From Escherichia phage P479, in the sequence record MW269952.1: 64,000 nt of DNA; one strand, 5' to 3'. The notes beneath the pieces were generated by a model. That model searched no databases. It was given only the letters and a program-made list of their open reading frames with translations, and was not told the origin of the DNA. This document shows, piece by piece, positions 3,288 through 12,811 of the stretch. Both the position numbers and the translations under genes were made by a program. Position 1 is the first letter of the stretch. Each line of letters begins with the position of its first letter.

Positions 3288-3611
3288 ATGGAATTACCAA
3301 TTAAAGCAGTAGGTGAATATATTATTTTGGTTTCTGAGCCAAAGCAAGCTGGTGATGAAGAAACTACGGCATCAGGTATCGTTATCGGAAAACTCCATCA
3401 GGGTGAAATCCCAGAGATGTGCGAAGTATTTTCGGTTGGTCCGGATGTTCCCGAAGGTTTCTGTGAAGTGGGTGATTTGACTCCTCTTCCGGTTGGCAAG
3501 ATTGCAAACGTTCCACATCCTCTGGTTGCTCTGGGACTTAAGCAGGCTAAAGAAGTTAAGCAGAAATTTGTGACCTGTCATTATAAAGCTGTTCCTTGTC
3601 TTTATAAGTAA
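3288..3611 (+). CDS. 31: co-chaperonin for GroEL (GroES analogue) gp31
   Basis: Translation ...[33 protein letters not shown]...[14 protein letters not shown] matches recalled T4 gp31. Start chosen at the internal ATG (MELPIK); the ORF-track start 3264 is the alternative. Confidence 0.8.
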
Positions 3612-3768
3612 AATTAGCGTTATAAATAATAATATGGATTGGCTGCCGGACCAGTTAGTTAACCGGAGAATCCTAAACGGTGGACTACAACTGAGAGACT
3701 TGCCGAAAGGAAGTGAAATTCAGAAGAACGTGTCCACCAAATATTCACCTCATATTGAGGCTTCTAAA

Positions 3769-4023
3769 ATGTCTTTAAACAAACAATTACAACACGCTCT
3801 TGAACTGCAACGCACTGCATGGAATAACGGTCACGAAAACTACGGCGCATCTATTGATGTTGAAGCCGAAGCACTGGAAATTCTGCAGTATTTCAAACAT
3901 CTTAACCCGATTCAAACCGACCTTCGTGCAGTGCTCGAAGCAAAAGATGAACTGAAATTTGCTAAGCCACTGGCATCTGCTGCCCGTAAAGCTGTTCGCC
4001 ATTTTGTCGTAACTCTGAAGTAA
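3769..4023 (+). CDS. rIII: rIII lysis-inhibition accessory protein
   Basis: About 84 aa from the internal ATG; position immediately downstream of gene 31 as in T4. Assignment by synteny and size. Confidence 0.5.
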   Translation: MSLNKQLQHALELQRTAWNNGHENYGASIDVEAEALEILQYFKHLNPIQTDLRAVLEAKDELKFAKPLASAARKAVRHFVVTLK

Positions 4024-4422
4024 TTTATTGGAGATTCACTGCCTTAGTGTGAGCTAAAATCGAGGAGCCGTCGAATTGTCTGATTAATGATTTGCGAATC
4101 ATTATAGTTTTAAGACCTCGGCAATTTTATGGTGTACCTCTTGAATGTTATTCTTATAGCGGCAAGTGCATGCTACCCCGAGGTGATGGCCAATCGGGAG
4201 TACGCCTCAAGGCCTATATATCCATCAGTATATATCTTATCCTCGAGAAATCGAACCCGGAACCTTTAAGCTAACGGTGTGCAACAGATAAGAGCTATAA
4301 GGTATGATGACGAGGTTTATGGTTATCCTGTCGTAAAATATCCGAAACCTAATGTTCCCTTCGAGGGCTTGCGCAGGCAATGTCAATAAGTCCTGCATTC
4401 TATTTTAAAGAGAATTTAATAT

Positions 4423-4581
4423 GGCTAAGAAAGAAGTTAAAGTTGTTGATGGCTCCTCCAAACGCGCTGGTTACAAGCGTGCGTCCAACAAGCGAATCAA
4501 TCAGGTGACTGATAAACTTCAGGCTCGTGCTCGTGCGGTATTGCGTGCCGATGCAGCTTGCTTTGGTAAGCCGAAAGCATA
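4423..4581 (+). CDS. small basic protein, 52 aa
   Basis: ATG at 4423 with upstream agag; MAKKEVKVVDGSSKRAGYKRASNKRINQVTDKLQARARAVLRADAACFGKPKA; followed directly by a terminator. Below the ORF-track size cutoff. Confidence 0.4.
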
Positions 4582-4587
4582 AGTTCA

Positions 4588-4615
4588 GGGACTCTTCGGA
4601 GTCCCTTTTTTATTT
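4588..4615 (+). terminator. rho-independent terminator
   Basis: ggactc-ttcg-gagtcc hairpin followed by a T-run (ttttttatttt). Confidence 0.7.
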
Positions 4616-4626
4616 TCCATAAAGGG

Positions 4627-4656
4627 GTTTACAACAGGGTTTGACCAGTACATAAT
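4627..4656 (+). promoter_or_regulatory. T4-type early promoter (GTTTAC, 18 nt, CATAAT) with conserved leader gattccatactgagtta
   Basis: gtttac 4627-4632, cataat 4651-4656; a near-identical cassette lies at 27629-27699. Confidence 0.55.
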
Positions 4657-4697
4657 GATTCCATACTGAGTTACCAAATAAAACACTGGAGAATAAA

Positions 4698-5066
4698 ATG
4701 AAAATCAATCTTAACTCATACATCAAAGGTAAAGACCACGACGGGTACAAAGCCATTGAAACTAAAGAAATGCAATGGCACTTGTATAAAGAACAATTTG
4801 AATTTGTTGGTTGCATGACTCCAGAAGGTCCTTCTGATGACTTCTCTTGGAAAATTATGGTAACAAACTTTTTTACTGGTGATACCTACGAACTGAAAAC
4901 TATCGTAACTGGTAAGATTCGTTGTAAGACCTATGAAGATGAAGAAACTGGTTATTCTGAAGATGTTACATGGTATCAAAATGGTCGCACCACTGCAGAC
5001 CTTCTGATTGAAAAAATGAAAGCTAAGGGTGAATTAAATTTAGATAATTGGATTAAAGTCGCATAA
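4698..5066 (+). CDS. hypothetical protein, 122 aa
   Basis: ORF track; RBS ggag upstream. Confidence 0.5.
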   Translation: MKINLNSYIKGKDHDGYKAIETKEMQWHLYKEQFEFVGCMTPEGPSDDFSWKIMVTNFFTGDTYELKTIVTGKIRCKTYEDEETGYSEDVTWYQNGRTTADLLIEKMKAKGELNLDNWIKVA

Positions 5067-5137
5067 AACAGTTTACTTTGGTACAGGTTATGATATTATA
5101 GACCTGTACCAACAAATGAAAACAACTGGAGAATAAA

Positions 5138-5503
5138 ATGAACTACATCAACTTTGAACGCAAATATGTTTCTAACTGCATCCCAGGTTCTTCTGAAGTT
5201 ATTTGCTTGTGGAAACATAAAAATGGTTCAGTGTGCGAAATTGAACAGTATATGACTCCTAACTACGTTTATATGCGATTTGAAAATGGTATCACCCTTT
5301 CAATCACTATGACTGGTTCAACCTTTAAAATTGCTTTAGATGATGATTTCCGTGAACGTGATTTAGGGACTCATCCTTGCTGGAATGGTGTTAATCGCAA
5401 GCTGTTGGTTAAAACTTGGATTCGTCACATCCTGAGCAACAAAGCAAAACCTGAACACCTGGAAGCAATCTTTGATGTAGTTCTTAATGAATTTGATATC
5501 TAA
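5138..5503 (+). CDS. hypothetical protein, 121 aa
   Basis: ORF track; RBS actggagaataaaATG is shared with the 4698 ORF. Confidence 0.5.
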   Translation: MNYINFERKYVSNCIPGSSEVICLWKHKNGSVCEIEQYMTPNYVYMRFENGITLSITMTGSTFKIALDDDFRERDLGTHPCWNGVNRKLLVKTWIRHILSNKAKPEHLEAIFDVVLNEFDI

Positions 5504-5539
5504 TCTTAAATGGGGCGAAAGCCCCTTGAGGAAAATACT

Positions 5540-5827
5540 ATGTTTATGACTACCTACTTTGATACACGCAAAAATTTCTGTGAAGTTGTTTTCTCTAAAA
5601 AAGGCCCTAATGTTCCTGCTGGGCGTGAACCAACTAAAGAATCCATTAAAAACTATGTGGATATAGTTTGCCCAGTTGAATTCAGGACTGTTAATGGATG
5701 TGATACCCTGGCAATCACCAAGCTTAGACGCGACATTGATATTGAACCAATTGCAGCACGTGAAATTAATTCGTCTGATATTAATGGCGGTAATGTTAAA
5801 TCACACGGTTTTCAGATGAGGTTCTAA
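5540..5827 (+). CDS. hypothetical protein
   Basis: ORF 5510-5827; internal ATG at 5540 has a better RBS (gagga). Confidence 0.4.
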   Translation: MFMTTYFDTRKNFCEVVFSKKGPNVPAGREPTKESIKNYVDIVCPVEFRTVNGCDTLAITKLRRDIDIEPIAAREINSSDINGGNVKSHGFQMRF

Positions 5828-6021
5828 TGCAACTATTCTTATCGCAAACTGTTCAGTTAAAAGGTGTGGGTATTCCTGGAATGATTTCTAAGGTTTTGCC
5901 TGCTTTTAAATTCGGTGGTATTGTAATTAAAGAAGCGTATCTAGTCTTGTGGGTTGATGGAACAGAAGACGTTCGCATGAGCGGTGAACTGTCTGTAATC
6001 AAATGTTTAAGGCGAGGATAA
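5827..6021 (+). CDS. hypothetical protein
   Basis: ORF track, 64 aa; coupled to the upstream stop. Confidence 0.35.
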   Translation: MQLFLSQTVQLKGVGIPGMISKVLPAFKFGGIVIKEAYLVLWVDGTEDVRMSGELSVIKCLRRG

Positions 6022-6022
6022 T

Positions 6023-6235
6023 ATGTTTAAGAAACTGATTCAGAAAATTTTGGGAACAGAAATGGTTGAAGTTACTTATTCAGTTATTGACCATAGTCCT
6101 TATCTTCAAGATAACAAAGAAAAAGTTATTAAAAAGATTATCCTTAAAAAGCATAACAGCTTATCTATTGAAGACCGTCTACCTGGTTATGGTCATTGGG
6201 CTGATGTAGATATTATCAGTGTCAAAGATGTCTGA
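6023..6235 (+). CDS. hypothetical protein
   Basis: ORF track, 70 aa. Confidence 0.4.
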   Translation: MFKKLIQKILGTEMVEVTYSVIDHSPYLQDNKEKVIKKIILKKHNSLSIEDRLPGYGHWADVDIISVKDV

Positions 6236-6686
6236 GTTAGAAATCAGAAGCAATTTCCCATGGCCGTCATGTGCATTAAGTAACTTTGCTAAATGGCCTT
6301 TTGTTATGGATGGCATCCAGTTTGGAGGTCTTGAAGGCTTCCTCCAAGGGTGCAAGGTGAGAAATAATGAACAACAAAAACGTATATTTGGGATGTCCGG
6401 ATTGGCCGCCCAGCAAAGTGGAAGAGCTTATGCAAGAGCTGCGGACCGTGGGACGCTTTTCTGGCGTGGAATTCCCTTTTCAAGATACTCTACAGCATGG
6501 AAAGAGTTGTATACAAATGCATATTTTGAAGCAGCGCTCCAAAACAAAGGATTCCGCGACGCATTACAAGCCACAAAGGGCAAAGTTTTAAAGCATTCGA
6601 TGGCGAGCCACCTTACTGTTCATGATACAATATTGACTGAACAAGAATTTATTGACATACTTAACCAATTGAGAGATGCATTATGA
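6228..6686 (+). CDS. NADAR-family (YbiA-like, DUF1768-type) protein; positional equivalent of T4 30.3
   Basis: Motif LSNFAKWPFVMDGIQFGGLEGFLQGCK matches the SNFA-WP...DG...E...K pattern of E. coli YbiA/NADAR as recalled; synteny in the 30.x cluster. Confidence 0.55.
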   Translation: MSELEIRSNFPWPSCALSNFAKWPFVMDGIQFGGLEGFLQGCKVRNNEQQKRIFGMSGLAAQQSGRAYARAADRGTLFWRGIPFSRYSTAWKELYTNAYFEAALQNKGFRDALQATKGKVLKHSMASHLTVHDTILTEQEFIDILNQLRDAL

Positions 6687-7531
6687 AACCCGTTATTTTA
6701 ACCGATATTGATGGCGTATGTTTGTCATGGCAGTCTGGCTTGCCTTATTTCGCTCAAAAATATAATTTACCCCTGGAACATATCCTTAAGATGATTCAGG
6801 ATGAAAAATTTGTGACCCCTGGTAAACTGTTCAATTGTGATGAAGAGTTAGGAGCGCAGTTAATTGAAAAATATAACTGTTCAGATTTTATTCGCTATTT
6901 GTCTCCTTACACAGATGCGTTAAGGGTTATTAATAACCTCAAAGAGCAATATGATTTTGTGGCTGTTACAGCCCTGGGTGATTCTATTGATGCTCGCCTG
7001 AATCGTCAATTCAACCTGAATGCTTTGTTCCCTGGGGCGTTTAAAGAAGTGATGATGTGTGGTCATACAGCCTCTAAAGAAGAGTTATTCCAGAAAGCGA
7101 AGACCAAATATAATGTCGTTTGTTATATTGATGACCTTGCACACCATTGCGACCATGCGAGTGAAATCCTTGAAGTCCCGGTTTATTGGATGGCTCGTGG
7201 TGAACGTGATGCTATTCCTAAAACAGCTTCCAAAGTTTTTAATTGGGACGATGTTGCTGGACAGCTTAAACTGAAACACAAAGATGAACCGGTCAAGCCA
7301 GAATACACCCCTGATGAACTCCGTAAACTGGACGAGCTGTTTCGTGAAACTCGCCGTCTTCAGCAGCAAATGCAGCAAGGCTGGCAGCCAGGTCAACCAT
7401 GGACTCCTGGATATAATCCAGCGTATCCATATCAATATAATCCAGCGTACCCATATCAATATGGTCCACGCGTAGGTACTGGCATTGAATATTGGTACAA
7501 TCAACCGACCGGTGGCCAAGGGGGTAATTGA
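6683..7531 (+). CDS. HAD-superfamily-like hydrolase with Q/P/Y-rich low-complexity C-terminal tail (positional equivalent of T4 30.2)
   Basis: N-terminal ILTDIDGV resembles the HAD phosphatase motif I (DxDG); C-terminus ...QQQMQQGWQPGQPWTPGYNPAYPYQYNPAYPYQYGPRVG... is encoded by a tandem 24-bp repeat. Confidence 0.5.
   Translation: MKPVILTDIDGVCLSWQSGLPYFAQKYNLPLEHILKMIQDEKFVTPGKLFNCDEELGAQLIEKYNCSDFIRYLSPYTDALRVINNLKEQYDFVAVTALGDSIDARLNRQFNLNALFPGAFKEVMMCGHTASKEELFQKAKTKYNVVCYIDDLAHHCDHASEILEVPVYWMARGERDAIPKTASKVFNWDDVAGQLKLKHKDEPVKPEYTPDELRKLDELFRETRRLQQQMQQGWQPGQPWTPGYNPAYPYQYNPAYPYQYGPRVGTGIEYWYNQPTGGQGGN
7414..7461 (+). repeat. tandem 24-bp direct repeat x2 (one mismatch) inside the 6683-7531 CDS
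   Basis: taatccagcgtatccatatcaata / taatccagcgtacccatatcaata; encodes the duplicated NPAYPYQY. Confidence 0.85.
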
Positions 7532-7809
7532 TGTTTGTCGTTCATACTATTTCAGACCATGGTCCAGTCACCACGATGGATTACGGTCATGTTAACCAGT
7601 TTATTCGTCATGTGAATCATAATTACTCGTTTGATATTAATCCGGCCAAGGATAACCCCATCTGGCGGGAATGTGTTGAACAAGGATTTATCTATGTTCA
7701 CTTCATGACTAAAATGAAACCAGATGGGGCGACTAAATTTGTGTTCACTTATCATAAGCGGTTGGATTTGCTTTTGGAAGATGTGGCATATAATAGAGCC
7801 AACGACTAA
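7528..7809 (+). CDS. hypothetical protein (positional equivalent of T4 30.1)
   Basis: ORF track, 93 aa; ATGA overlap with the upstream gene. Confidence 0.45.
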   Translation: MMFVVHTISDHGPVTTMDYGHVNQFIRHVNHNYSFDINPAKDNPIWRECVEQGFIYVHFMTKMKPDGATKFVFTYHKRLDLLLEDVAYNRAND

Positions 7810-7812
7810 GAG

Positions 7813-9351
7813 GTGATTATGATTTTAGATATTTTAAATGAAATTGCTGCAACCGATTCCACTAAAGAGAAACAAGCTATCCTGGAATCGTATTCTGACA
7901 ATGAAACCCTCAAACGTGTGTATCGTTTGACATATTCCAAAGGCATCCAGTTCTATATTAAGAAATGGCCAAAACCTGGGACAACGACTCAAAGCTTTGG
8001 TATGCTGAATATCGATGATATGCTTGACTTTATTGAATTCACATTAGCCTCTCGTAAATTAACAGGTAATGCTGCAATCGAGGAATTATCTGGCTATATT
8101 GCTGATGGTAAAAAAGCAGATGTTGAAGTCCTGCGGCGTGTTATGATGCGTGACCTGGAATGCGGGGCATCCGTATCAATTGCGAATAAGGTTTGGAAAG
8201 GTTTAATTCCTGAACAACCACAGATGCTCGCTTCTTCCTATGATGAAGCCGGTATTGCCAAGAACATTAAGTTCCCGGCCTTTGCGCAATTGAAAGCCGA
8301 CGGCGCTCGGTGTTTTGCAGAAGTTCGTGGCGATGAGTTGGATGATGTTCGATTGCTATCCCGAGCTGGTAACGAATACCTTAAGCTTGACCTCCTTAAA
8401 AAGGAATTGATTGAAGCTACCCGTGAAGCGCGTGAGAGGCATCCTGAGGGCGTTTTGATTGACGGCGAGTTAGTATATCATGAACAGAAAATAGCTCCAC
8501 AGAATGATGGTTTGGGTTTCCTTTTTGACGATTCAGATGAGATTGCTCCTGCAAAAGAAACCGCAGAATCAAGAACATTTTCGAATGGTATGGCAAACAA
8601 ATCATTAAAAGGAACCATTTCTGCAACAGAAGCTTCTTGCATGAAATTCCAGGTTTGGGATTATGTTCCACTGATTGAAGTCTATTCTGATGTTAAGATT
8701 CTCAATCCGTTGAAATACGATGTGCGTTTTGCTGTTCTGGAAAAGATGATTGCAGATAACGTGGTGCTACATGGTTTCGACCGCATGATTCTGATTGAAA
8801 ACCATGTTGTTAACAATCTCGATGAAGCGAAGGTTATCTATAAGAAATATGTGGATGAAGGTCTTGAAGGTATTATCCTTAAGAACATGGCATCGATTTG
8901 GGAAAACAAGCGCTCAAAGAACTTGTACAAGTTCAAAGAAGTAATTGACATTGCAATGGAAATCATTGGATATTACGAGCACGATAAAGACCCGAATAAG
9001 ATTGGCGGTGTTGTGCTTCGTTCTTCTTGTGGTAAGATTACAAATAACTGTGGTTCTGGTTTTAAAGACACAACTCAAGTTAAAGATAAGAAAACCAAAA
9101 AATGGGTTACTATTCCGATTGAGGAGCGTCATGAAATGGACCGTGAAGCCTTGATGGTTAAAGCCCGTAAAGGTGAATTGGTTGGAATGATTGCCGACTG
9201 TGAATGTAATGGTTGGTTGACTTCCGAGACTCGTAAAGATAATACGGTTGCATTGTTCCTGCCGATTATCAAAGGGTTCCGTTTCGATAAAGACCATGCA
9301 GACACATTCGAAGATGTATTTGGCGACTGGTCAAAGACCGGGTTAAAATAA
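7813..9351 (+). CDS. 30: ATP-dependent DNA ligase gp30
   Basis: 512 aa; N-terminus MILDILNEIAATDSTKEKQAILESY... matches recalled T4 ligase; adenylation motif KADG (AQLKADGAR) present. Confidence 0.9.
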   Translation: MIMILDILNEIAATDSTKEKQAILESYSDNETLKRVYRLTYSKGIQFYIKKWPKPGTTTQSFGMLNIDDMLDFIEFTLASRKLTGNAAIEELSGYIADGKKADVEVLRRVMMRDLECGASVSIANKVWKGLIPEQPQMLASSYDEAGIAKNIKFPAFAQLKADGARCFAEVRGDELDDVRLLSRAGNEYLKLDLLKKELIEATREARERHPEGVLIDGELVYHEQKIAPQNDGLGFLFDDSDEIAPAKETAESRTFSNGMANKSLKGTISATEASCMKFQVWDYVPLIEVYSDVKILNPLKYDVRFAVLEKMIADNVVLHGFDRMILIENHVVNNLDEAKVIYKKYVDEGLEGIILKNMASIWENKRSKNLYKFKEVIDIAMEIIGYYEHDKDPNKIGGVVLRSSCGKITNNCGSGFKDTTQVKDKKTKKWVTIPIEERHEMDREALMVKARKGELVGMIADCECNGWLTSETRKDNTVALFLPIIKGFRFDKDHADTFEDVFGDWSKTGLK

Positions 9352-9352
9352 C

Positions 9353-9374
9353 AAAAGGGCTTCGGCCCTTTTTT
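9353..9374 (+). terminator. rho-independent terminator after the ligase gene
   Basis: gggc-ttcg-gccc hairpin followed by tttttt. Confidence 0.65.
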
Positions 9375-9376
9375 AG

Positions 9377-9384
9377 TATAAATA
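9377..9384 (+). promoter_or_regulatory. T4-type late promoter TATAAATA upstream of alt
   Basis: tataaata 25 nt upstream of the alt ATG. Confidence 0.6.
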
Positions 9385-9409
9385 CATCATATTTTATAAG
9401 GAACCTATT

Positions 9410-11470
9410 ATGTCTGAACAATTAAATGAACTCTTTGACAAATATATCGAAGCCTTCGATTATCCTGTCATTAATATGAATCCGAAATACAAGGTCCCAC
9501 AGGTTTGGCAATTCGGTGTTCCTGGGACCAATTCTCTTATGGCCCGTTTGATGCAATTCACGGGCAAAGAAACAGTTAAACAATATAAACGCGGCGATGC
9601 AATTGCCGAGGTATTCCTGCTCTCCGGGACTTCACATGGCCATGCTGTTCCTCTGAAGGGTGGTCTAGGTGAAAAACCTCTTGATGCGATTAACCTGATT
9701 TTTGTTACAGTCTGGGAAAGCATTAAACTAGGCAAACCTGATGTAGTCTTGTTCCGTTTCCCATCCAAAAAGATGAAAGGGCAAGACCAAGCTGTTATTC
9801 GTATTATGAATCGACTGATTCAAATGAAAACCAGCGGGCGTTATCATGTTCTTCCAAATGCTTCTGGTCTCGGTAAAAAGAACGCATACGTAATTATGTA
9901 CAAAAAGGGTGTTGACCTGCTTTCGGTTGATGGTATGCCACCAGTCCCTGAGAAATATCAAAAAGTTGAAACTAAAGTTGGCGATGTATTCACCAATAAA
10001 GATACAGGTGCACAAGTCTCCAAACAAGAAATCGCAGCCGAAGTTCTGATTGACGCAGCAAACAAAAAGACCGATGCTGCTGTTGCCCAGAAAACTAAAA
10101 TAAGTCGCCGAGCTATTGCACAAGCCCAGTATGCTCCAAGTGATTCCGTGCCCGATGGCTGGGACGAAATTGATGCAGAAGCTGCTAAGTTTAGTCGACC
10201 GGCTACGGCAGAACTTATCGATGATTATGAAGAACTGGAAATTTTTGTTCGACCTTCCGAAACGAATACTATGGCTCGTATGCGCGCAGCAGATGAGGCT
10301 ATGCGAGCAAATGGTGTTTGGAAAGAAGAAATTCGTGTTGAAGACTCTGACCCAATTTTTAACCGTATGCATCGTGAACTTAAACGTGCCCCTGTTGGCA
10401 GTATGAAGCAGATGCAGATTTTTGCCGAATCATGTGCCGAGATTCTTAACCTTCGCAAAGCCGCATTTATCGAAAGAAAAATGAATGATGCTCCTCCTAA
10501 CCTGGATGCAGCCACTTATGCAGCCTCGCTCTGGGAAAAAGAATACACAAGCGCCATTCGTGTTGCAGTTAAAGACTTTGCCGAAGAAGCATCAGAAAAT
10601 ACTCTTAATTTCACAGCAGGATATACTGACAACCGTTTCCATTATGGCCAGCGAGAAGCAATTGCAGATTATTGTGGAGCAAACTATGCCGATATTAATA
10701 ATTATTTGATGGGCAAATATTATGAAGAAGAAGCTGAATTCCTAAATCTAGACAGAGTTGTCGAAACAATTAAGGAATTGGATTCGGCCTTTGAAATTGG
10801 ACATAAGTTGCCGCCTAATACAACTCTTTGGCGTGGTCAATATTTAAACGTTCCTACATTTGATAAAATTAAGAAATCTAAATTATTTTATTTCAGGAAC
10901 TATGTATCAACGTCGTTTAAACCGATTATCTTTGGTGGCTGGGTGGCGAACGTTGCTATGGCTGCAGTTCATCAGGACTATCGTGATGGGACATCTTTCC
11001 AGGCTGATGACGAAATTGTTTTACCAGATATGCCAGCTGTACGCCGCGACCATGTAATGATGCATGTTGGTTGGAAAATTTCTGGGGCGGACTTAATTAA
11101 CGTAATTGTTCCTGGGGAATTGTCAAGCAACCCGTCCGAGCAGGAAGTTATTCTTCCTCGTGGGACTGTAGTTAAGATTACCAAAATTACTGATGCTTCG
11201 TATCAAGGAAACGCGAACGTCAAAATGCTGGAAGCTGATATCCAGACTACGGACCAACTGGATGAAAATGCAGTTATCTATGATGGTGATGTGTTGATGG
11301 AAACTGGTGAGCTTGTCGTTTATCAGGGCGAGGAATCAGAAGAGCCAGTAGAATCTGTTGACTTTGCATCGTTTGCATCCTCTGGGGTGACGAAGAAAGT
11401 CAATCAAGGTCTTGGTATTCTTGCTAGTTGTATTAATTTGGAAGCTATTCCTCCTAAATTCCTTTCGTAG
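9410..11470 (+). CDS. alt: Alt-like ADP-ribosyltransferase (virion-packaged)
   Basis: 686 aa (T4 Alt about 680 aa); position adjacent to gene 30 as in T4; C-terminal block ...NVVLPGELSSNPSEQEVILPRGTVVKITKITDASY... resembles recalled T4 Alt. Confidence 0.75.
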   Translation: MSEQLNELFDKYIEAFDYPVINMNPKYKVPQVWQFGVPGTNSLMARLMQFTGKETVKQYKRGDAIAEVFLLSGTSHGHAVPLKGGLGEKPLDAINLIFVTVWESIKLGKPDVVLFRFPSKKMKGQDQAVIRIMNRLIQMKTSGRYHVLPNASGLGKKNAYVIMYKKGVDLLSVDGMPPVPEKYQKVETKVGDVFTNKDTGAQVSKQEIAAEVLIDAANKKTDAAVAQKTKISRRAIAQAQYAPSDSVPDGWDEIDAEAAKFSRPATAELIDDYEELEIFVRPSETNTMARMRAADEAMRANGVWKEEIRVEDSDPIFNRMHRELKRAPVGSMKQMQIFAESCAEILNLRKAAFIERKMNDAPPNLDAATYAASLWEKEYTSAIRVAVKDFAEEASENTLNFTAGYTDNRFHYGQREAIADYCGANYADINNYLMGKYYEEEAEFLNLDRVVETIKELDSAFEIGHKLPPNTTLWRGQYLNVPTFDKIKKSKLFYFRNYVSTSFKPIIFGGWVANVAMAAVHQDYRDGTSFQADDEIVLPDMPAVRRDHVMMHVGWKISGADLINVIVPGELSSNPSEQEVILPRGTVVKITKITDASYQGNANVKMLEADIQTTDQLDENAVIYDGDVLMETGELVVYQGEESEEPVESVDFASFASSGVTKKVNQGLGILASCINLEAIPPKFLS

Positions 11471-11472
11471 GG

Positions 11473-11502
11473 GTTTACAAGCACAAGGAAGTGCGATACA
11501 AT
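11473..11502 (+). promoter_or_regulatory. T4-type early promoter (GTTTAC, 18 nt, TACAAT)
   Basis: gtttac 11473-11478, tacaat 11497-11502; followed by the same leader cacatgaggaaaacaaaATG as at 976-998. Confidence 0.5.
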
Positions 11503-11533
11503 GTTCATATCAATTGCACATGAGGAAAACAAA

Positions 11534-11824
11534 ATGAAATCATCTTTTCGCTTTAATGGTCAGGAACTGGTAGTTGAGAATGTTATCCCGGCTTCAGAAG
11601 AGTTTGACAGCGCGGTGGGTAATGAACTGCGGCGCGTGTTTGGCGAAGATAAGAAGTTTGACCTTCGCCCTGTTGAAAACTTTGTAAATTCTGAACAAAC
11701 AGAAAATATTTTTAATGGTGTAGTAACTGGGCAACTTGAATCTGAAGCACCAATTGCAATTACAGTCTTTGCTAAGAAAGAAGTTGTAATGACTGCAGCA
11801 GGTTTCATTTCATTCCGCAAATAA
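11534..11824 (+). CDS. hypothetical protein (alt-downstream small ORF)
   Basis: ORF 11501-11824; internal ATG at 11534 with RBS gaggaaaacaaa. Confidence 0.45.
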   Translation: MKSSFRFNGQELVVENVIPASEEFDSAVGNELRRVFGEDKKFDLRPVENFVNSEQTENIFNGVVTGQLESEAPIAITVFAKKEVVMTAAGFISFRK

Positions 11825-11853
11825 AAAAGGGACCTTCGGGTCCCTTTCTTTTT
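11823..11853. terminator. bidirectional terminator hairpin (GGGACC-ttcg-GGTCCC) between the convergent 11534 ORF and gene 54
   Basis: Perfect 6-bp stem flanked by an A-run on the left and a T-run on the right. Confidence 0.7.
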
Positions 11854-12811
11854 ATAATATACGTTGACTTCCACCAGAGACTGTTCTCCCAGAACCAGTG
11901 AACGTATTGTACAGACTTGTTAATCCAGATTGAGCACCAGACAAGCGGCTCAATTTGGCAACTTCTGAGTTCAAGTTGTTATCTGAACTAATACCAGATA
12001 CACCCTTAATAACCTTATCTTCCAACCATTCCAATGCCGCAGCTCTTCCCACCGCACCAGTTGACATAACGCGATAAGCAAAAGTCACATCAAATGTAGC
12101 TATCTGATTATCCCCTTCATAGCTCAATTCAGGCGCAGATACACTTACAGGAACACAACCAGTTAACATAACAACCGTGTGCGGTAACCCATTACGTGAA
12201 TGAAGGTTAACCTGAATATCAGCTTCAACGTCTTCAGGCAAAGCCCTTAGCTGGGTAACTGGGTCCTGTACAGAGTTAACCCAATCGTTAAATGCTCTGA
12301 AGTTCCCTGCCTCTGAATCCATTCTAAAGCTCAATACCAACGGAGAATATTCTCTCCCGGTTATCTTGATATTTGGTGCATTATGGTTAAGGTCCATTTC
12401 GTAGTTCAATGTGTTATCCGGAAGCTTAACAGAGTGAACTAATAGACCAGCCGTTGGATATGCCATATTAAAGAAATCAAGTAGGTAAGTACCAACCTCA
12501 AATTCCCCCAATAATGATTGCACAACACGGTTACTCATTGCACCGATAAGATATTTGCTTATCCCTGATTTACGAATAAGCTTTTGTGTTCCGGCCGTAA
12601 CAAGAGTTGTTATCCCCTGAGTTAAGTCACCTTGTGTTAATCCGAACCAATCTGAGTTAACAGGAAGGTTACTGAATAATGCACCCCCGAACTGGTCCAG
12701 AAGATTCTGAGATTTGGAGGAAGGCGTGGTCGCGAAGACCACACTAAAAAGGTTATTCCTCTGCAAGTCGATATTAATCGCTTGTGTTTGAAATTCTTGT
12801 AAAGTAAACAT
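11852..12811 (-). CDS. 54: baseplate tail-tube initiator gp54
   Basis: 319 aa (T4 gp54 320 aa); synteny 54-48-29-28-27-51. Confidence 0.8.
   Translation of the reverse strand: MFTLQEFQTQAINIDLQRNNLFSVVFATTPSSKSQNLLDQFGGALFSNLPVNSDWFGLTQGDLTQGITTLVTAGTQKLIRKSGISKYLIGAMSNRVVQSLLGEFEVGTYLLDFFNMAYPTAGLLVHSVKLPDNTLNYEMDLNHNAPNIKITGREYSPLVLSFRMDSEAGNFRAFNDWVNSVQDPVTQLRALPEDVEADIQVNLHSRNGLPHTVVMLTGCVPVSVSAPELSYEGDNQIATFDVTFAYRVMSTGAVGRAAALEWLEDKVIKGVSGISSDNNLNSEVAKLSRLSGAQSGLTSLYNTFTGSGRTVSGGSQRIL

What the first reader, a model, noticed from the sequence alone, without database searches (positions are those of the whole stretch)
6228..7531. NADAR-like gene followed by a HAD-like hydrolase with a Q/P/Y-rich repeat tail in the 30.x accessory cluster
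Seen: 6228-6686 carries the SNFA-WP...DG...E...K pattern typical of NADAR/YbiA-type N-glycosidases. 6683-7531 begins with the HAD motif ILTDIDGV and ends in a low-complexity tail QQQMQQGWQPGQPWTPGYNPAYPYQYNPAYPYQY, unusual for a small hydrolase. Established, from memory: NADAR-family enzymes can remove ADP-ribose from guanine bases, that is, reverse DarT-type DNA ADP-ribosylation. Inference: the pair may process or reverse nucleotide/ADP-ribose modifications, a candidate counter-measure to ADP-ribosylating defence toxins. The tail could mediate interaction or phase separation.
Basis: partly seen in the sequence, partly recalled or inferred. Interest (0 to 1): 0.55.

Follow-up and report, generated by a model that had tools for sequence, protein, structure and literature searches.

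The report
Known anti-DarT NADAR plus uncharacterised phosphatase
The first gene is this T4-like phage's copy of AdfN, an enzyme already shown to strip a bacterial defence toxin's ADP-ribose marks off phage DNA. The gene after it is a separate, still uncharacterised phosphatase with a floppy tail, and it does not appear to work with AdfN.

Summary
Both observations hold. ORF 6228-6686 is the ortholog of T4 gp30.3, 86% identical and full length. It matches Pfam Phage_30_3 (E 1.7e-64), has a NADAR fold, and keeps catalytic E36 and K43 and the phage-type H123. T4 gp30.3 was published in 2024-25 as AdfN, a guanine-ADP-ribose DNA glycohydrolase that defeats DarTG1.

ORF 6683-7531 is the gp30.2 ortholog. 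Residues 1-199 form a C1-capped HAD phosphatase with all four catalytic motifs invariant across 81 relatives. Its nearest specific relatives are 5'(3')-deoxyribonucleotidases (NT5C), but only weakly. Residues 233-282 are a disordered G/P/Y/Q-rich tail.

The "repeat" in the tail is a recent 24-bp tandem duplication. The tail does carry a cross-genus conserved motif, GTGIEY[LW]xxQPT.

The "pair" idea is not supported:
- In a T4 transposon screen on DarTG1, 30.3 insertions are lost (log2FC -7.25) and 30.2 insertions are neutral (-0.12).
- gp30.2 sits beside DNA ligase in 72 of 75 loci. It lies within 4 kb of AdfN in only about a third to half of loci, and the two genes are about 55-60 kb apart in other genera.

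The substrate of gp30.2 remains unknown; a nucleotide monophosphate is the best guess.

The parts
6023..6235 (+). gp30.4 homolog (70 aa, function unknown), given as context. Its stop codon overlaps the adfN start by 8 nt (ATGTCTGA).
   Evidence: ORF list. phrog_2042, E 2.8e-32. Aligned with T4 gp30.4. T4 30.4 is the only gene other than 30.3 that is significantly depleted on DarTG1 (log2FC -1.79, padj 0.014).
6228..6686 (+). adfN (gp30.3 ortholog): a NADAR-fold DNA ADP-ribosylglycohydrolase, 152 aa.
   Evidence: PF08010, E 1.7e-64. 86% identity to T4 gp30.3 with no gaps. AF2 model pLDDT 95.9. The top three Foldseek PDB matches are the NADAR structures 2b3w, 8bat and 8bau.
6333..6356 (+). Catalytic segment E36-G-F-L-Q-G-C-K43 of AdfN.
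   Evidence: E36 is invariant and K43 nearly invariant in 70 relatives. The E36A and K43A mutants of T4 AdfN lose activity (PMC11825919).
6594..6596 (+). H123, the histidine that marks phage-type NADARs. It takes the place of the Glu of YbiA or the Asp of DarT1-linked NADARs.
   Evidence: Invariant in alignment A3. It directly follows strand 120-122 in the model. The subfamily rule is described in PMC11125620.
6639..6680 (+). C-terminal helix of AdfN (aa 138-151), intact in this phage.
   Evidence: Helix 138-151 in the model. The RB69 allele that lacks the last 15 residues is defective (PMC11825919).
6683..7531 (+). gp30.2 ortholog, 282 aa: HAD phosphatase, then a helix, then a disordered tail.
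   Evidence: phrog_420, E 2.7e-78. 66% identity to T4 gp30.2. AF2 model pLDDT 87.
6683..7279 (+). C1-capped HAD phosphatase domain (aa 1-199). Motif I is D8-I-D10-G-V (6704-6718). Motif II is T96 (6968-6970). Motif III is K132 (7076-7078). Motif IV is D150-D151 (7130-7135).
7310..7378 (+). Charged and Q-rich helix (aa 210-232) linking the enzyme domain to the tail.
   Evidence: Helix 210-232 in the model, with pLDDT about 90.
7379..7528 (+). Disordered low-complexity tail (aa 233-282), 82% G/P/Y/Q/N/W.
   Evidence: pLDDT 37-58. Composition and entropy. Tails are unalignable or absent in most relatives.
7411..7474 (+). 24-bp tandem duplication that encodes YNPAYPYQ twice.
   Evidence: TRF: period 24, 2.6 copies. 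Only a single copy in cluster P0121.
7475..7510 (+). Conserved short linear motif G265-T-G-I-E-Y-W-Y-N-Q-P-T276.
   Evidence: The same motif sits 6-10 residues from the C-terminus in 18 of 58 long-tailed clusters, down to about 45% HAD identity. It occurs once in the 64-kb window.
7531..7809 (+). gp30.1 homolog (DUF3045), given as context. Its start overlaps the gp30.2 stop (TGATG).
   Evidence: PF11243, E 1.8e-18. N-terminus MFVVHTI matches T4 gp30.1.
7819..9351 (+). ATP-dependent DNA ligase (gene 30). This is the conserved downstream neighbour of gp30.2.
   Evidence: PF01068, E 2.1e-28. The start MILDILNEIA matches T4 MILKILNEIA. Ligase lies downstream of gp30.2 in 72 of 75 loci.

Best explanation
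These are two independent enzymes that happen to be neighbours in this lineage.

**(1) Gene 6228-6686 is adfN.** It encodes a small NADAR-fold N-glycosidase. During infection it cuts ADP-ribose off guanine bases that the host DarT1 toxin has added to phage DNA. That lets replication proceed in DarTG1-carrying hosts. The activity is shown for the T4 ortholog and inferred here from 86% identity and conservation of every functional residue.

**(2) Gene 6683-7531 (gp30.2) is a Mg-dependent HAD phosphomonoesterase.** The DxD nucleophile and acid pair, the Thr, the Lys and the DD motif are all invariant. A four-helix C1 cap closes over the active site, and that architecture is typical of small-molecule substrates. 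The most likely substrate class is a (deoxy)nucleoside monophosphate. I put this at about 0.35-0.4, based on a distant link to the NT5C family.

After the enzyme domain comes a helix and then a disordered aromatic and proline-rich tail. Only one part of the tail is conserved: a 12-residue motif (GTGIEY[LW]xxQPT) that probably docks the enzyme on a partner protein. That docking role is inferred.

**gp30.2 is not needed for AdfN's anti-DarTG1 function.** Its stable genomic partner is DNA ligase, not AdfN.
For: **AdfN**
- PF08010, E 1.7e-64.
- 86% identity to T4 gp30.3 over all 152 residues, with E36, K43 and H123 present.
- The model has pLDDT 95.9. Its only significant PDB fold matches are YbiA, the G. 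lovleyi DarG1-type NADAR and PnNADAR bound to ADP-ribose.
- 21 of 70 family members also hit Pfam NADAR.
- T4 AdfN is necessary and sufficient against DarTG1 and removes ADP-ribose from DNA in vitro (PMC11825919; PMC11125620).

**gp30.2**
- The four HAD motifs are invariant or nearly so in 81 relatives.
- The domain model is confident, with block pLDDT 93-98 over residues 1-190 (86 for 191-200).
- The family profile reaches 1300 representatives. Of 89 distant ones, 32 match Pfam NT5C, and one I checked scores above the curated cut-off.
- Divergence from close relatives is concentrated at third codon positions, which indicates purifying selection.

**Independence of the two genes**
- In T4 HIDEN-SEQ on DarTG1, 30.3 has log2FC -7.25 and 30.2 has -0.12 (p 0.61). 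Only two genes are significant genome-wide, 30.3 and 30.4.
- On DarTG2 the single significant hit is tk.4.
- Ligase lies downstream of gp30.2 in 72 of 75 loci, with a median gap of 290 nt. AdfN lies within 4 kb upstream in 37 of 75 and abuts gp30.2 in 16.
- Only 23 of 80 AdfN loci have the HAD within 4 kb.
- In several genomes the two genes are about 55-60 kb apart.
- T4 annotates a separate middle promoter for 30.2 inside 30.3.
Against: - No biochemistry exists for gp30.2 in any phage. I found no paper on it.
- The genetic evidence comes from T4, whose gp30.2 is 66% identical. It comes from a preprint, from one library comparison, and from one DarTG1 allele. A redundant or subtle helper role would not be detected.
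- Both genes are near-universal in Straboviridae (1438 and 1511 phage records). Genome-level co-occurrence therefore neither supports nor excludes a link.
- The ATGA overlap shows that the two genes are co-translated in this lineage.
Confidence: 0.8

Rival explanations
1. Functional pair. gp30.2 works with AdfN, either as the unidentified T-even-specific factor that AdfN-T4 needs for full activity, or by disposing of the released ADP-ribose or its phosphorylated breakdown products.
For: - ATGA start/stop overlap and the same strand.
- PMC11825919 reports that AdfN-T4 works fully only during T-even infection and proposes an unknown phage factor.
- NADAR and HAD enzymes both occur in riboflavin-intermediate damage control. 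One JGI annotation calls a gp30.2 homolog 'FMN phosphatase YigB'.
Against: - T4 30.2 insertions are neutral on DarTG1 (log2FC -0.12). Only 30.3 and 30.4 are significant genome-wide.
- Adjacency is lineage-limited: 23 of 80 AdfN loci, with the genes 55-60 kb apart in other genera.
- AdfN relatives occur in Caulobacter, Brevundimonas and Rhizobium phages. None of these genera is among the listed gp30.2 hits, though I did not search them specifically.
- Tail-bearing gp30.2 genes occur without an adjacent AdfN.
Confidence: 0.07
2. gp30.2 is a DNA-end 3'-phosphatase that cleans nicks for the DNA ligase encoded just downstream, like the phosphatase domain of T4 Pnkp.
For: - Ligase lies downstream in 72 of 75 loci, often within 150 nt.
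- Weak hit to phrog_415, polynucleotide kinase (E 9e-4).
Against: - gp30.2 has a four-helix C1 cap (helices 16-65). By established knowledge of HAD cap types, this favours small substrates, and the polynucleotide 3'-phosphatases are capless.
- The Pnkp matches cover only the core, 125-128 aligned residues, and rank below about 38 other HADs.
- Conserved gene order in T4-like genomes can be inherited without any functional coupling.
- By my own knowledge, T4-like phages already encode Pnkp.
Confidence: 0.1
3. The tail is the functional part. It drives condensate formation or scaffolding, and the HAD domain is incidental or inactive.
For: - The tail is disordered and rich in aromatic residues, Gly, Pro and Gln.
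- It expanded recently by tandem duplication.
Against: - About half of the homolog clusters have no tail at all (61 of 119 are shorter than 245 aa), while the catalytic residues are invariant.
- Tails differ completely between genera except for one 12-residue motif. That pattern fits a docking peptide on a flexible linker better than a composition-driven condensate.
Confidence: 0.05

Closest known systems
T4 AdfN (gp30.3), anti-DarT factor NADAR (Johannesman et al., Nat Commun 2025, PMC11825919)
   Same: Orthologous. 86% identical over the same 152-aa length, at the same locus between 30.4 and 30.2. E36, K43, H123 and the C-terminal helix are all present.
   Different: 22 substitutions. The activity of this particular allele has not been tested.
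DarG1 / DarT1-associated NADAR antitoxins (BC4488 family; G. lovleyi NADAR, PDB 8bat)
   Same: Same fold (Foldseek prob 1.00) and the same chemistry, removal of ADP-ribose from guanine in DNA (PMC11825919, PMC11125620).
   Different: The phage protein lacks the N-terminal extension. It has His instead of Asp in the last strand. It is not encoded next to a toxin. The T4 version cannot replace DarG1 in uninfected cells.
E. coli YbiA (PDB 2b3w), NADAR/YbiA family
   Same: Best structural match (E 2.8e-5, TM 0.68). It is also the only sequence-level PDB hit, over the SNFA-WP...E...K segment.
   Different: 19% identity. YbiA has the catalytic Glu where the phage protein has His, and it has a different physiological role.
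5'(3')-deoxyribonucleotidases cdN/mdN and bacterial relatives (Pfam NT5C PF06941; PDB 2jao, 2i7d, 3bwv)
   Different: The window protein does not reach the NT5C or any HAD Pfam threshold. It carries an 80-residue helix and disordered tail that NT5C enzymes lack. Its substrate is unknown.
T4 Pnkp 3'-phosphatase domain (PDB 1ltq, 5uj0)
   Same: A phage HAD phosphatase with the DxDxT/V motif. It is functionally linked to ligation.
T5 Dmp, deoxynucleoside-5'-monophosphatase
   Same: A possible functional analogue: a phage-encoded dNMP phosphatase with a DxDGT start.
   Different: No detectable homology beyond motif I (hhalign probability 1.4%). No Pfam match.

Membership tests
Phage gp30.3 / AdfN subfamily of the NADAR superfamily | Match to Pfam PF08010 (Phage_30_3) above the curated cut-off | tested here: met
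   216.3 bits against a cut-off of 36, E 1.7e-64, covering the full model.
Phage gp30.3 / AdfN subfamily of the NADAR superfamily | NADAR (YbiA-like) fold | tested here: met
   AF2 model pLDDT 95.9. The only Foldseek PDB matches with prob 1.00 are 2b3w (YbiA), 8bat (G. lovleyi NADAR) and 8bau (PnNADAR with ADP-ribose). The next hit has E 1.5.
Phage gp30.3 / AdfN subfamily of the NADAR superfamily | Catalytic Glu and Lys (E36 and K43 in AdfN-T4) | tested here: met
   E36 and K43 are present. E36 is invariant and K43 at least 90% conserved in 70 relatives.
Phage gp30.3 / AdfN subfamily of the NADAR superfamily | Histidine at the last-strand catalytic position (Glu in YbiA, Asp in the DarT1-linked family) | tested here: met
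   H123 is invariant in A3 and follows strand 120-122. The rule is stated in PMC11125620. I did not make a residue-level structural superposition onto the Glu or Asp of other NADARs.
Phage gp30.3 / AdfN subfamily of the NADAR superfamily | Intact C-terminal helix (lost in the defective RB69 allele) | tested here: met
   152 aa with no gaps against T4. Helix 138-151 in the model.
Phage gp30.3 / AdfN subfamily of the NADAR superfamily | Direct match to the general Pfam NADAR model PF08719 | tested here: inconclusive
   The window protein has no PF08719 hit at E <= 1. However, 21 of 70 family members hit it, with a best E of 1.5e-7.
Phage gp30.3 / AdfN subfamily of the NADAR superfamily | Removes ADP-ribose from guanine in DNA and protects the phage from DarTG1 | not testable with these tools
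   Shown for T4 gp30.3 (PMC11825919, PMC11125620, and HIDEN-SEQ log2FC -7.25). Inferred here by orthology.
HAD superfamily phosphatases | Motif I DxDx(T/V), motif II S/T, motif III K, motif IV DD | tested here: met
   D8-I-D10-G-V12, T96, K132, D150-D151. All are invariant except T96, which is at least 90% conserved across 81 relatives.
HAD superfamily phosphatases | Rossmann-like HAD core fold with a cap | tested here: met
HAD superfamily phosphatases | Match to a curated HAD sequence model above threshold | tested here: not met
   HAD_2 scores 14.2 bits against a cut-off of 23.8 (E 0.05). No NCBIfam hit. The family has no dedicated Pfam model; phrog_420 is annotated 'unknown function'.
NT5C 5'(3')-deoxyribonucleotidase family (PF06941) | Match to PF06941 above the curated cut-off | tested here: not met
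   The window protein has no hit. 15 of 81 close relatives hit weakly, with a best E of 0.002.
NT5C 5'(3')-deoxyribonucleotidase family (PF06941) | Transitive homology to bona fide NT5C members | tested here: inconclusive
   The profile of the gp30.2 family finds P0360 at E 8.5e-20, and P0360 scores 36.8 bits on NT5C against a cut-off of 24.8. 32 of 89 distant relatives hit NT5C at E <= 0.001. hhalign of A2 against A4 gives probability 100%. The majority of distant relatives still do not hit NT5C.
NT5C 5'(3')-deoxyribonucleotidase family (PF06941) | Hydrolyses (deoxy)nucleoside monophosphates | not testable with these tools
Two-gene AdfN + helper counter-defence module | Conserved adjacency of the two genes | tested here: not met
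   HAD within 4 kb in 23 of 80 AdfN loci. AdfN within 4 kb upstream in 37 of 75 gp30.2 loci, abutting in 16. The genes are about 55-60 kb apart in several genomes.
Two-gene AdfN + helper counter-defence module | Both genes required against DarTG1 | tested here: not met
   From published T4 data, not from this phage: 30.2 log2FC -0.12 (p 0.61), 30.3 log2FC -7.25.

The most novel reading that the evidence does not exclude
gp30.2 could be a tethered nucleotide or phosphate-ester phosphatase. Its conserved C-terminal peptide (G-[IVL]-E-Y-[LW]..QPT; GIEYLY in T4) would dock it on the replication and repair machinery. The peptide resembles the T4 sliding-clamp-binding ends of gp43 (SLDFLFG) and gp55 (SLDFLYEAND). 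Docking there would place the enzyme beside the DNA ligase whose gene it accompanies in nearly all T4-like phages. This would be a previously unrecognised clamp- or ligase-associated accessory enzyme, and possibly a counter to a nucleotide-based defence that has not yet been screened.
Probability: 0.1. Interest if true: 0.55.

Novelty: already known. Interest (0 to 1): 0.3.

Why it matters
That idea is correct, but it was published in 2024-25 for the T4 ortholog, so this window adds only another allele.

The residual value lies in gp30.2. It is a near-universal Straboviridae gene, found in 1438 phage records, with an intact phosphatase active site, no assigned function and no dedicated family model. 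Its conserved docking-like motif sits in an otherwise fast-evolving tail.

Knowing that gp30.2 is not AdfN's helper narrows the search for the unidentified T-even factor that AdfN needs. It also points to the small overlapping gene 30.4 as a candidate for that factor.

Tried and rejected
1. **gp30.2 as the unknown T-even factor that potentiates AdfN.** Rejected on the T4 HIDEN-SEQ data and on synteny.
2. **Homology of gp30.2 to T5 Dmp, a known phage dNMPase.** hhalign probability 1.4%, with only motif I aligning.
3. **PDB sequence searches for gp30.2, as a single sequence and as a profile.** Only marginal hits: 2jao at E 0.3, plus spurious helicase and EngB hits.
5. **PADLOC and NCBIfam scans.** PADLOC returned nothing for any of the four proteins; NCBIfam gave only a far sub-threshold AdfN hit (TIGR02464, 13.1 bits against a cut-off of 73.7).
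6. **Promoter and terminator consensus scan of 3500-12000.** Counts equal chance: 22 found against 22.0 expected for promoters, 9 against 7.5 for terminators.
7. **Domain fusions among distant relatives (P0242, P0282, P0290, P0345).** The extra regions have no Pfam match, and the one genomic context recovered was uninformative.
8. **Literature searches for gp30.2.** No paper found. One broad search was swamped by the number 30.2.
10. **Other HIDEN-SEQ conditions for 30.2.** I tried to read the rows for M9 medium and clinical isolates, but the part I opened did not contain the row, and I stopped there.
Full report
**Context.** The window comes from a T4-like myovirus. The stretch 5500-8000 is 95.9% identical to Escherichia phage 212 and 94.9% identical to Shigella phage SP18. 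SP18's record annotates the same genes as gp30.6 through gp30.1 followed by DNA ligase. Gene order on the + strand is:
- 30.6, 30.5, 30.4 (6023-6235)
- 30.3 (6228-6686)
- 30.2 (6683-7531)
- 30.1 (7531-7809)
- DNA ligase (7819-9351)
- Alt ADP-ribosyltransferase (9410-11470)

This is the mirror image of T4. Successive genes overlap at their stop and start codons: ATGTCTGA, ATGA and TGATG.

**Observation check.** Both observations are correct at the stated coordinates. The first ORF contains S18-N19-F20-A21, W23-P24, D28-G29, E36 and K43. The second begins MKPVILTDIDGV and ends in the quoted tail. The tail's last 50 residues are 82% G/P/Y/Q/N/W, against 24% in the enzyme domain. The repeated YNPAYPYQ unit is a 24-bp tandem duplication at 7411-7474. 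It is missing from the nearest protein cluster, so the "repeat" is a recent slippage event and not an ancient repeat architecture.

**Gene 1 is AdfN.**
- The protein matches Pfam Phage_30_3 at E 1.7e-64.
- It is 86% identical to T4 gp30.3 with no gaps over 152 residues.
- An AlphaFold model built on 70 relatives has pLDDT 95.9.
- The model's only meaningful PDB fold matches are the three NADAR structures: YbiA 2b3w, G. lovleyi NADAR 8bat, and P. nicotianae NADAR with ADP-ribose 8bau. Everything after those is noise.
- At sequence level the link to NADAR is thin for the single protein (YbiA E 1.1; profile E 0.01). However, 21 of 70 family members hit Pfam NADAR directly.
- E36 is invariant, K43 is at least 90% conserved, and the histidine typical of phage NADARs (H123) is invariant.
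- The C-terminal helix, whose loss cripples the RB69 allele, is intact.

T4 gp30.3 has been characterised experimentally.
- It removes ADP-ribose from guanine-modified DNA in vitro (PMC11125620; PMC11825919).
- It is necessary and sufficient for T-even resistance to DarTG1.
- It was named anti-DarT factor NADAR (AdfN).
- An independent T4 transposon screen confirms the requirement, with log2FC -7.25 on DarTG1.

**Gene 2 is a HAD phosphatase of unknown substrate.**
- gp30.2 is 66% identical to T4 gp30.2. The enzyme domain is highly conserved, while the tail needs 30 gap positions to align.
- In an alignment of 81 relatives, D8, D10, K132, D150 and D151 are invariant. T96 is nearly so. W16, S67, R108, N111 and R172 are also invariant.
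- The model is confident over residues 1-199. It shows a Rossmann-like core with a four-helix cap inserted right after motif I.
- Foldseek places a mouse 5'(3')-deoxyribonucleotidase first (2jao, E 2e-8), with other deoxyribonucleotidases high in the list.
- No curated sequence model reaches threshold for the window protein.
- An exhaustive profile search finds 1300 representatives. Of 89 distant ones, 32 match Pfam NT5C, and one I checked scores above the curated cut-off. Profile-profile probability between the two sets is 100%.

My conclusion is that gp30.2 is an active HAD phosphomonoesterase, and I hold this with high confidence. It is probably a divergent NT5C-like nucleotidase, which I hold with modest confidence, about 0.35-0.4. 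A capped HAD argues for a small substrate and against a DNA end. That argument rests on established knowledge of HAD cap types.

**The tail.**
- After the domain comes a confident helix (210-232), then a disordered region (pLDDT 37-58).
- Across 119 homolog clusters, about half have no tail. The remaining tails are mutually unalignable.
- One 12-residue motif, G-T-G-I-E-Y-[LW]-x-x-Q-P-T, recurs 6-10 residues from the C-terminus in 18 of 58 long-tailed clusters. It is found down to about 45% domain identity and is unique within the window.
- This is the signature of a short docking peptide on a flexible, fast-evolving linker.
- The core of the motif (GIEYLY in T4) resembles the clamp-binding ends of T4 gp43 (SLDFLFG) and gp55 (SLDFLYEAND), which I read from the T4 sequence. 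That resemblance is a lead only. A match of four or five residues is weak evidence, and I could not run a complex prediction.

**Are the two genes a functional pair? The evidence says no.**
- In the T4 HIDEN-SEQ screen on DarTG1, 30.2 insertions are neutral: 71 TA sites, log2FC -0.12, p 0.61. 30.3 insertions vanish. The sheet reports only two significant genes genome-wide, 30.3 and 30.4.
- On DarTG2 the single significant hit is tk.4.
- 30.2 is fully dispensable on K-12, with 72 of 72 TA sites hit.
- In 75 gp30.2 loci from IMG/VR, DNA ligase lies downstream in 72, at a median gap of 290 nt. AdfN lies within 4 kb upstream in only 37 and abuts gp30.2 in 16.
- In 80 AdfN loci, only 23 have the HAD within 4 kb.
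- In several genomes the two genes are about 55-60 kb apart, as seen by comparing contig coordinates.
- T4 also has an annotated middle promoter for 30.2 inside 30.3.

The caveats are real. The genetics come from T4 and from a preprint, with one DarTG1 allele. Both genes are near-universal in the family (1438 and 1511 phage records), so genome-level co-occurrence is uninformative. A redundant or subtle role would go undetected.

**Mechanism.** For AdfN, the steps are as follows. DarT1 ADP-ribosylates guanines in phage DNA. AdfN hydrolyses the N-glycosidic bond using E36, K43 and H123, which releases ADP-ribose and restores the template. This is shown in T4 and inferred here. For gp30.2, D8 would attack a phosphate monoester, D10 would act as the general acid and base, and K132, T96 and D150/D151 would hold the phosphate and Mg. 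All of this is inferred from the motifs. The cap would select a small substrate, most likely a nucleotide. The tail motif would tether the enzyme to an unknown partner.

**Novelty.** AdfN is already known. gp30.2 is an uncharacterised member of a very well-known superfamily, and I found no publication on it. Overall interest is low to moderate.

**A side lead.** The gene upstream of adfN, 30.4 (window 6023-6235), overlaps adfN's start codon. It is the only other T4 gene significantly depleted on DarTG1 (log2FC -1.79, padj 0.014). It is found in 721 phage records, about the same number as T-even-type AdfN alleles (730 records at 60% identity or more). AdfN-T4 is reported to need an unidentified T-even-specific factor. 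A polar effect of the insertions on adfN is the simpler explanation, but 30.4 is a cheap candidate to test.

Noticed in passing
window 6023-6235 (+): The gp30.4 homolog (70 aa, function unknown) overlaps the adfN start by 8 nt. In T4 it is the only gene besides adfN significantly depleted on DarTG1 (log2FC -1.79, padj 0.014; two significant genes genome-wide). It occurs in 721 phage records, about the same as T-even-type AdfN. It could be the unidentified T-even factor that AdfN needs, or the depletion could be a polar effect on adfN.
   Followed up: partly
window 6367-6591 (+): The internal out-of-frame ORF that T4 annotates as 30.3' is also open here (74 aa). It is only 59% identical to T4 30.3', against 86% for the AdfN frame. 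That is what an unselected overlapping frame would show.
   Followed up: partly
window 6606-6631 (+), inside adfN: This is the position equivalent to T4's annotated middle promoter PM30.2. The -10-like GATACAAT is conserved, but the upstream TGCT (MotA-box-like) segment reads TGGCG here. Whether 30.2 has its own middle promoter in this phage is unclear.
   Followed up: partly
window 9410-11470 (+): An Alt-type ADP-ribosyltransferase (PF03496, E 2.3e-19) lies about 2.7 kb downstream of adfN. A writer of protein ADP-ribosylation and an eraser of DNA ADP-ribosylation therefore sit in the same gene block. The HIDEN-SEQ preprint reports that T4 Alt helps evade Mokosh type I.
   Followed up: no
window 7813-9351 (+): The ligase ORF is listed from GTG 7813. 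The ATG at 7819 gives MILDILNEIA, which matches the T4 ligase start MILKILNEIA. The protein is about 510 aa against 487 in T4, so it carries insertions.
   Followed up: partly
window 4587-4606 and 11826-11847 (+): Two strong terminator-like hairpins (AGGGACTCTTCGGAGTCCCT followed by a T-run, and AAAGGGACCTTCGGGTCCCTTT) bracket the 30.8-to-alt gene block. No comparable + strand terminator lies between them. This suggests the block can be read as one transcription unit.
   Followed up: no
L116/L020, L130/L019, L132/L030, L133/L072, L139/L034, L144/L022, L110/L065, L104/L038: In these T4-like genomes from other genera, adfN and 30.2 are both present but lie about 55-60 kb apart on the same contig. 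AdfN has therefore been relocated or separately inserted during Straboviridae evolution.
   Followed up: partly
proteins P0242 (430 aa), P0282 (365 aa), P0290 (591 aa; locus L078 5001-6776), P0345 (660 aa): These distant relatives of the gp30.2 HAD domain are fused to large extra regions that have no Pfam match. The regions might hint at the family's substrate or partner if they could be resolved.
   Followed up: partly
homolog clusters P0131-P0138, P0154-P0160, P0165-P0168, P0172-P0174: Other gp30.2 tails end in different recurring C-terminal motifs (...LRAYY...LLNKVxANDS...TALLGMASLPIITG...SALRA[ST]F). The tail seems to swap docking peptides between phage lineages.
   Followed up: no
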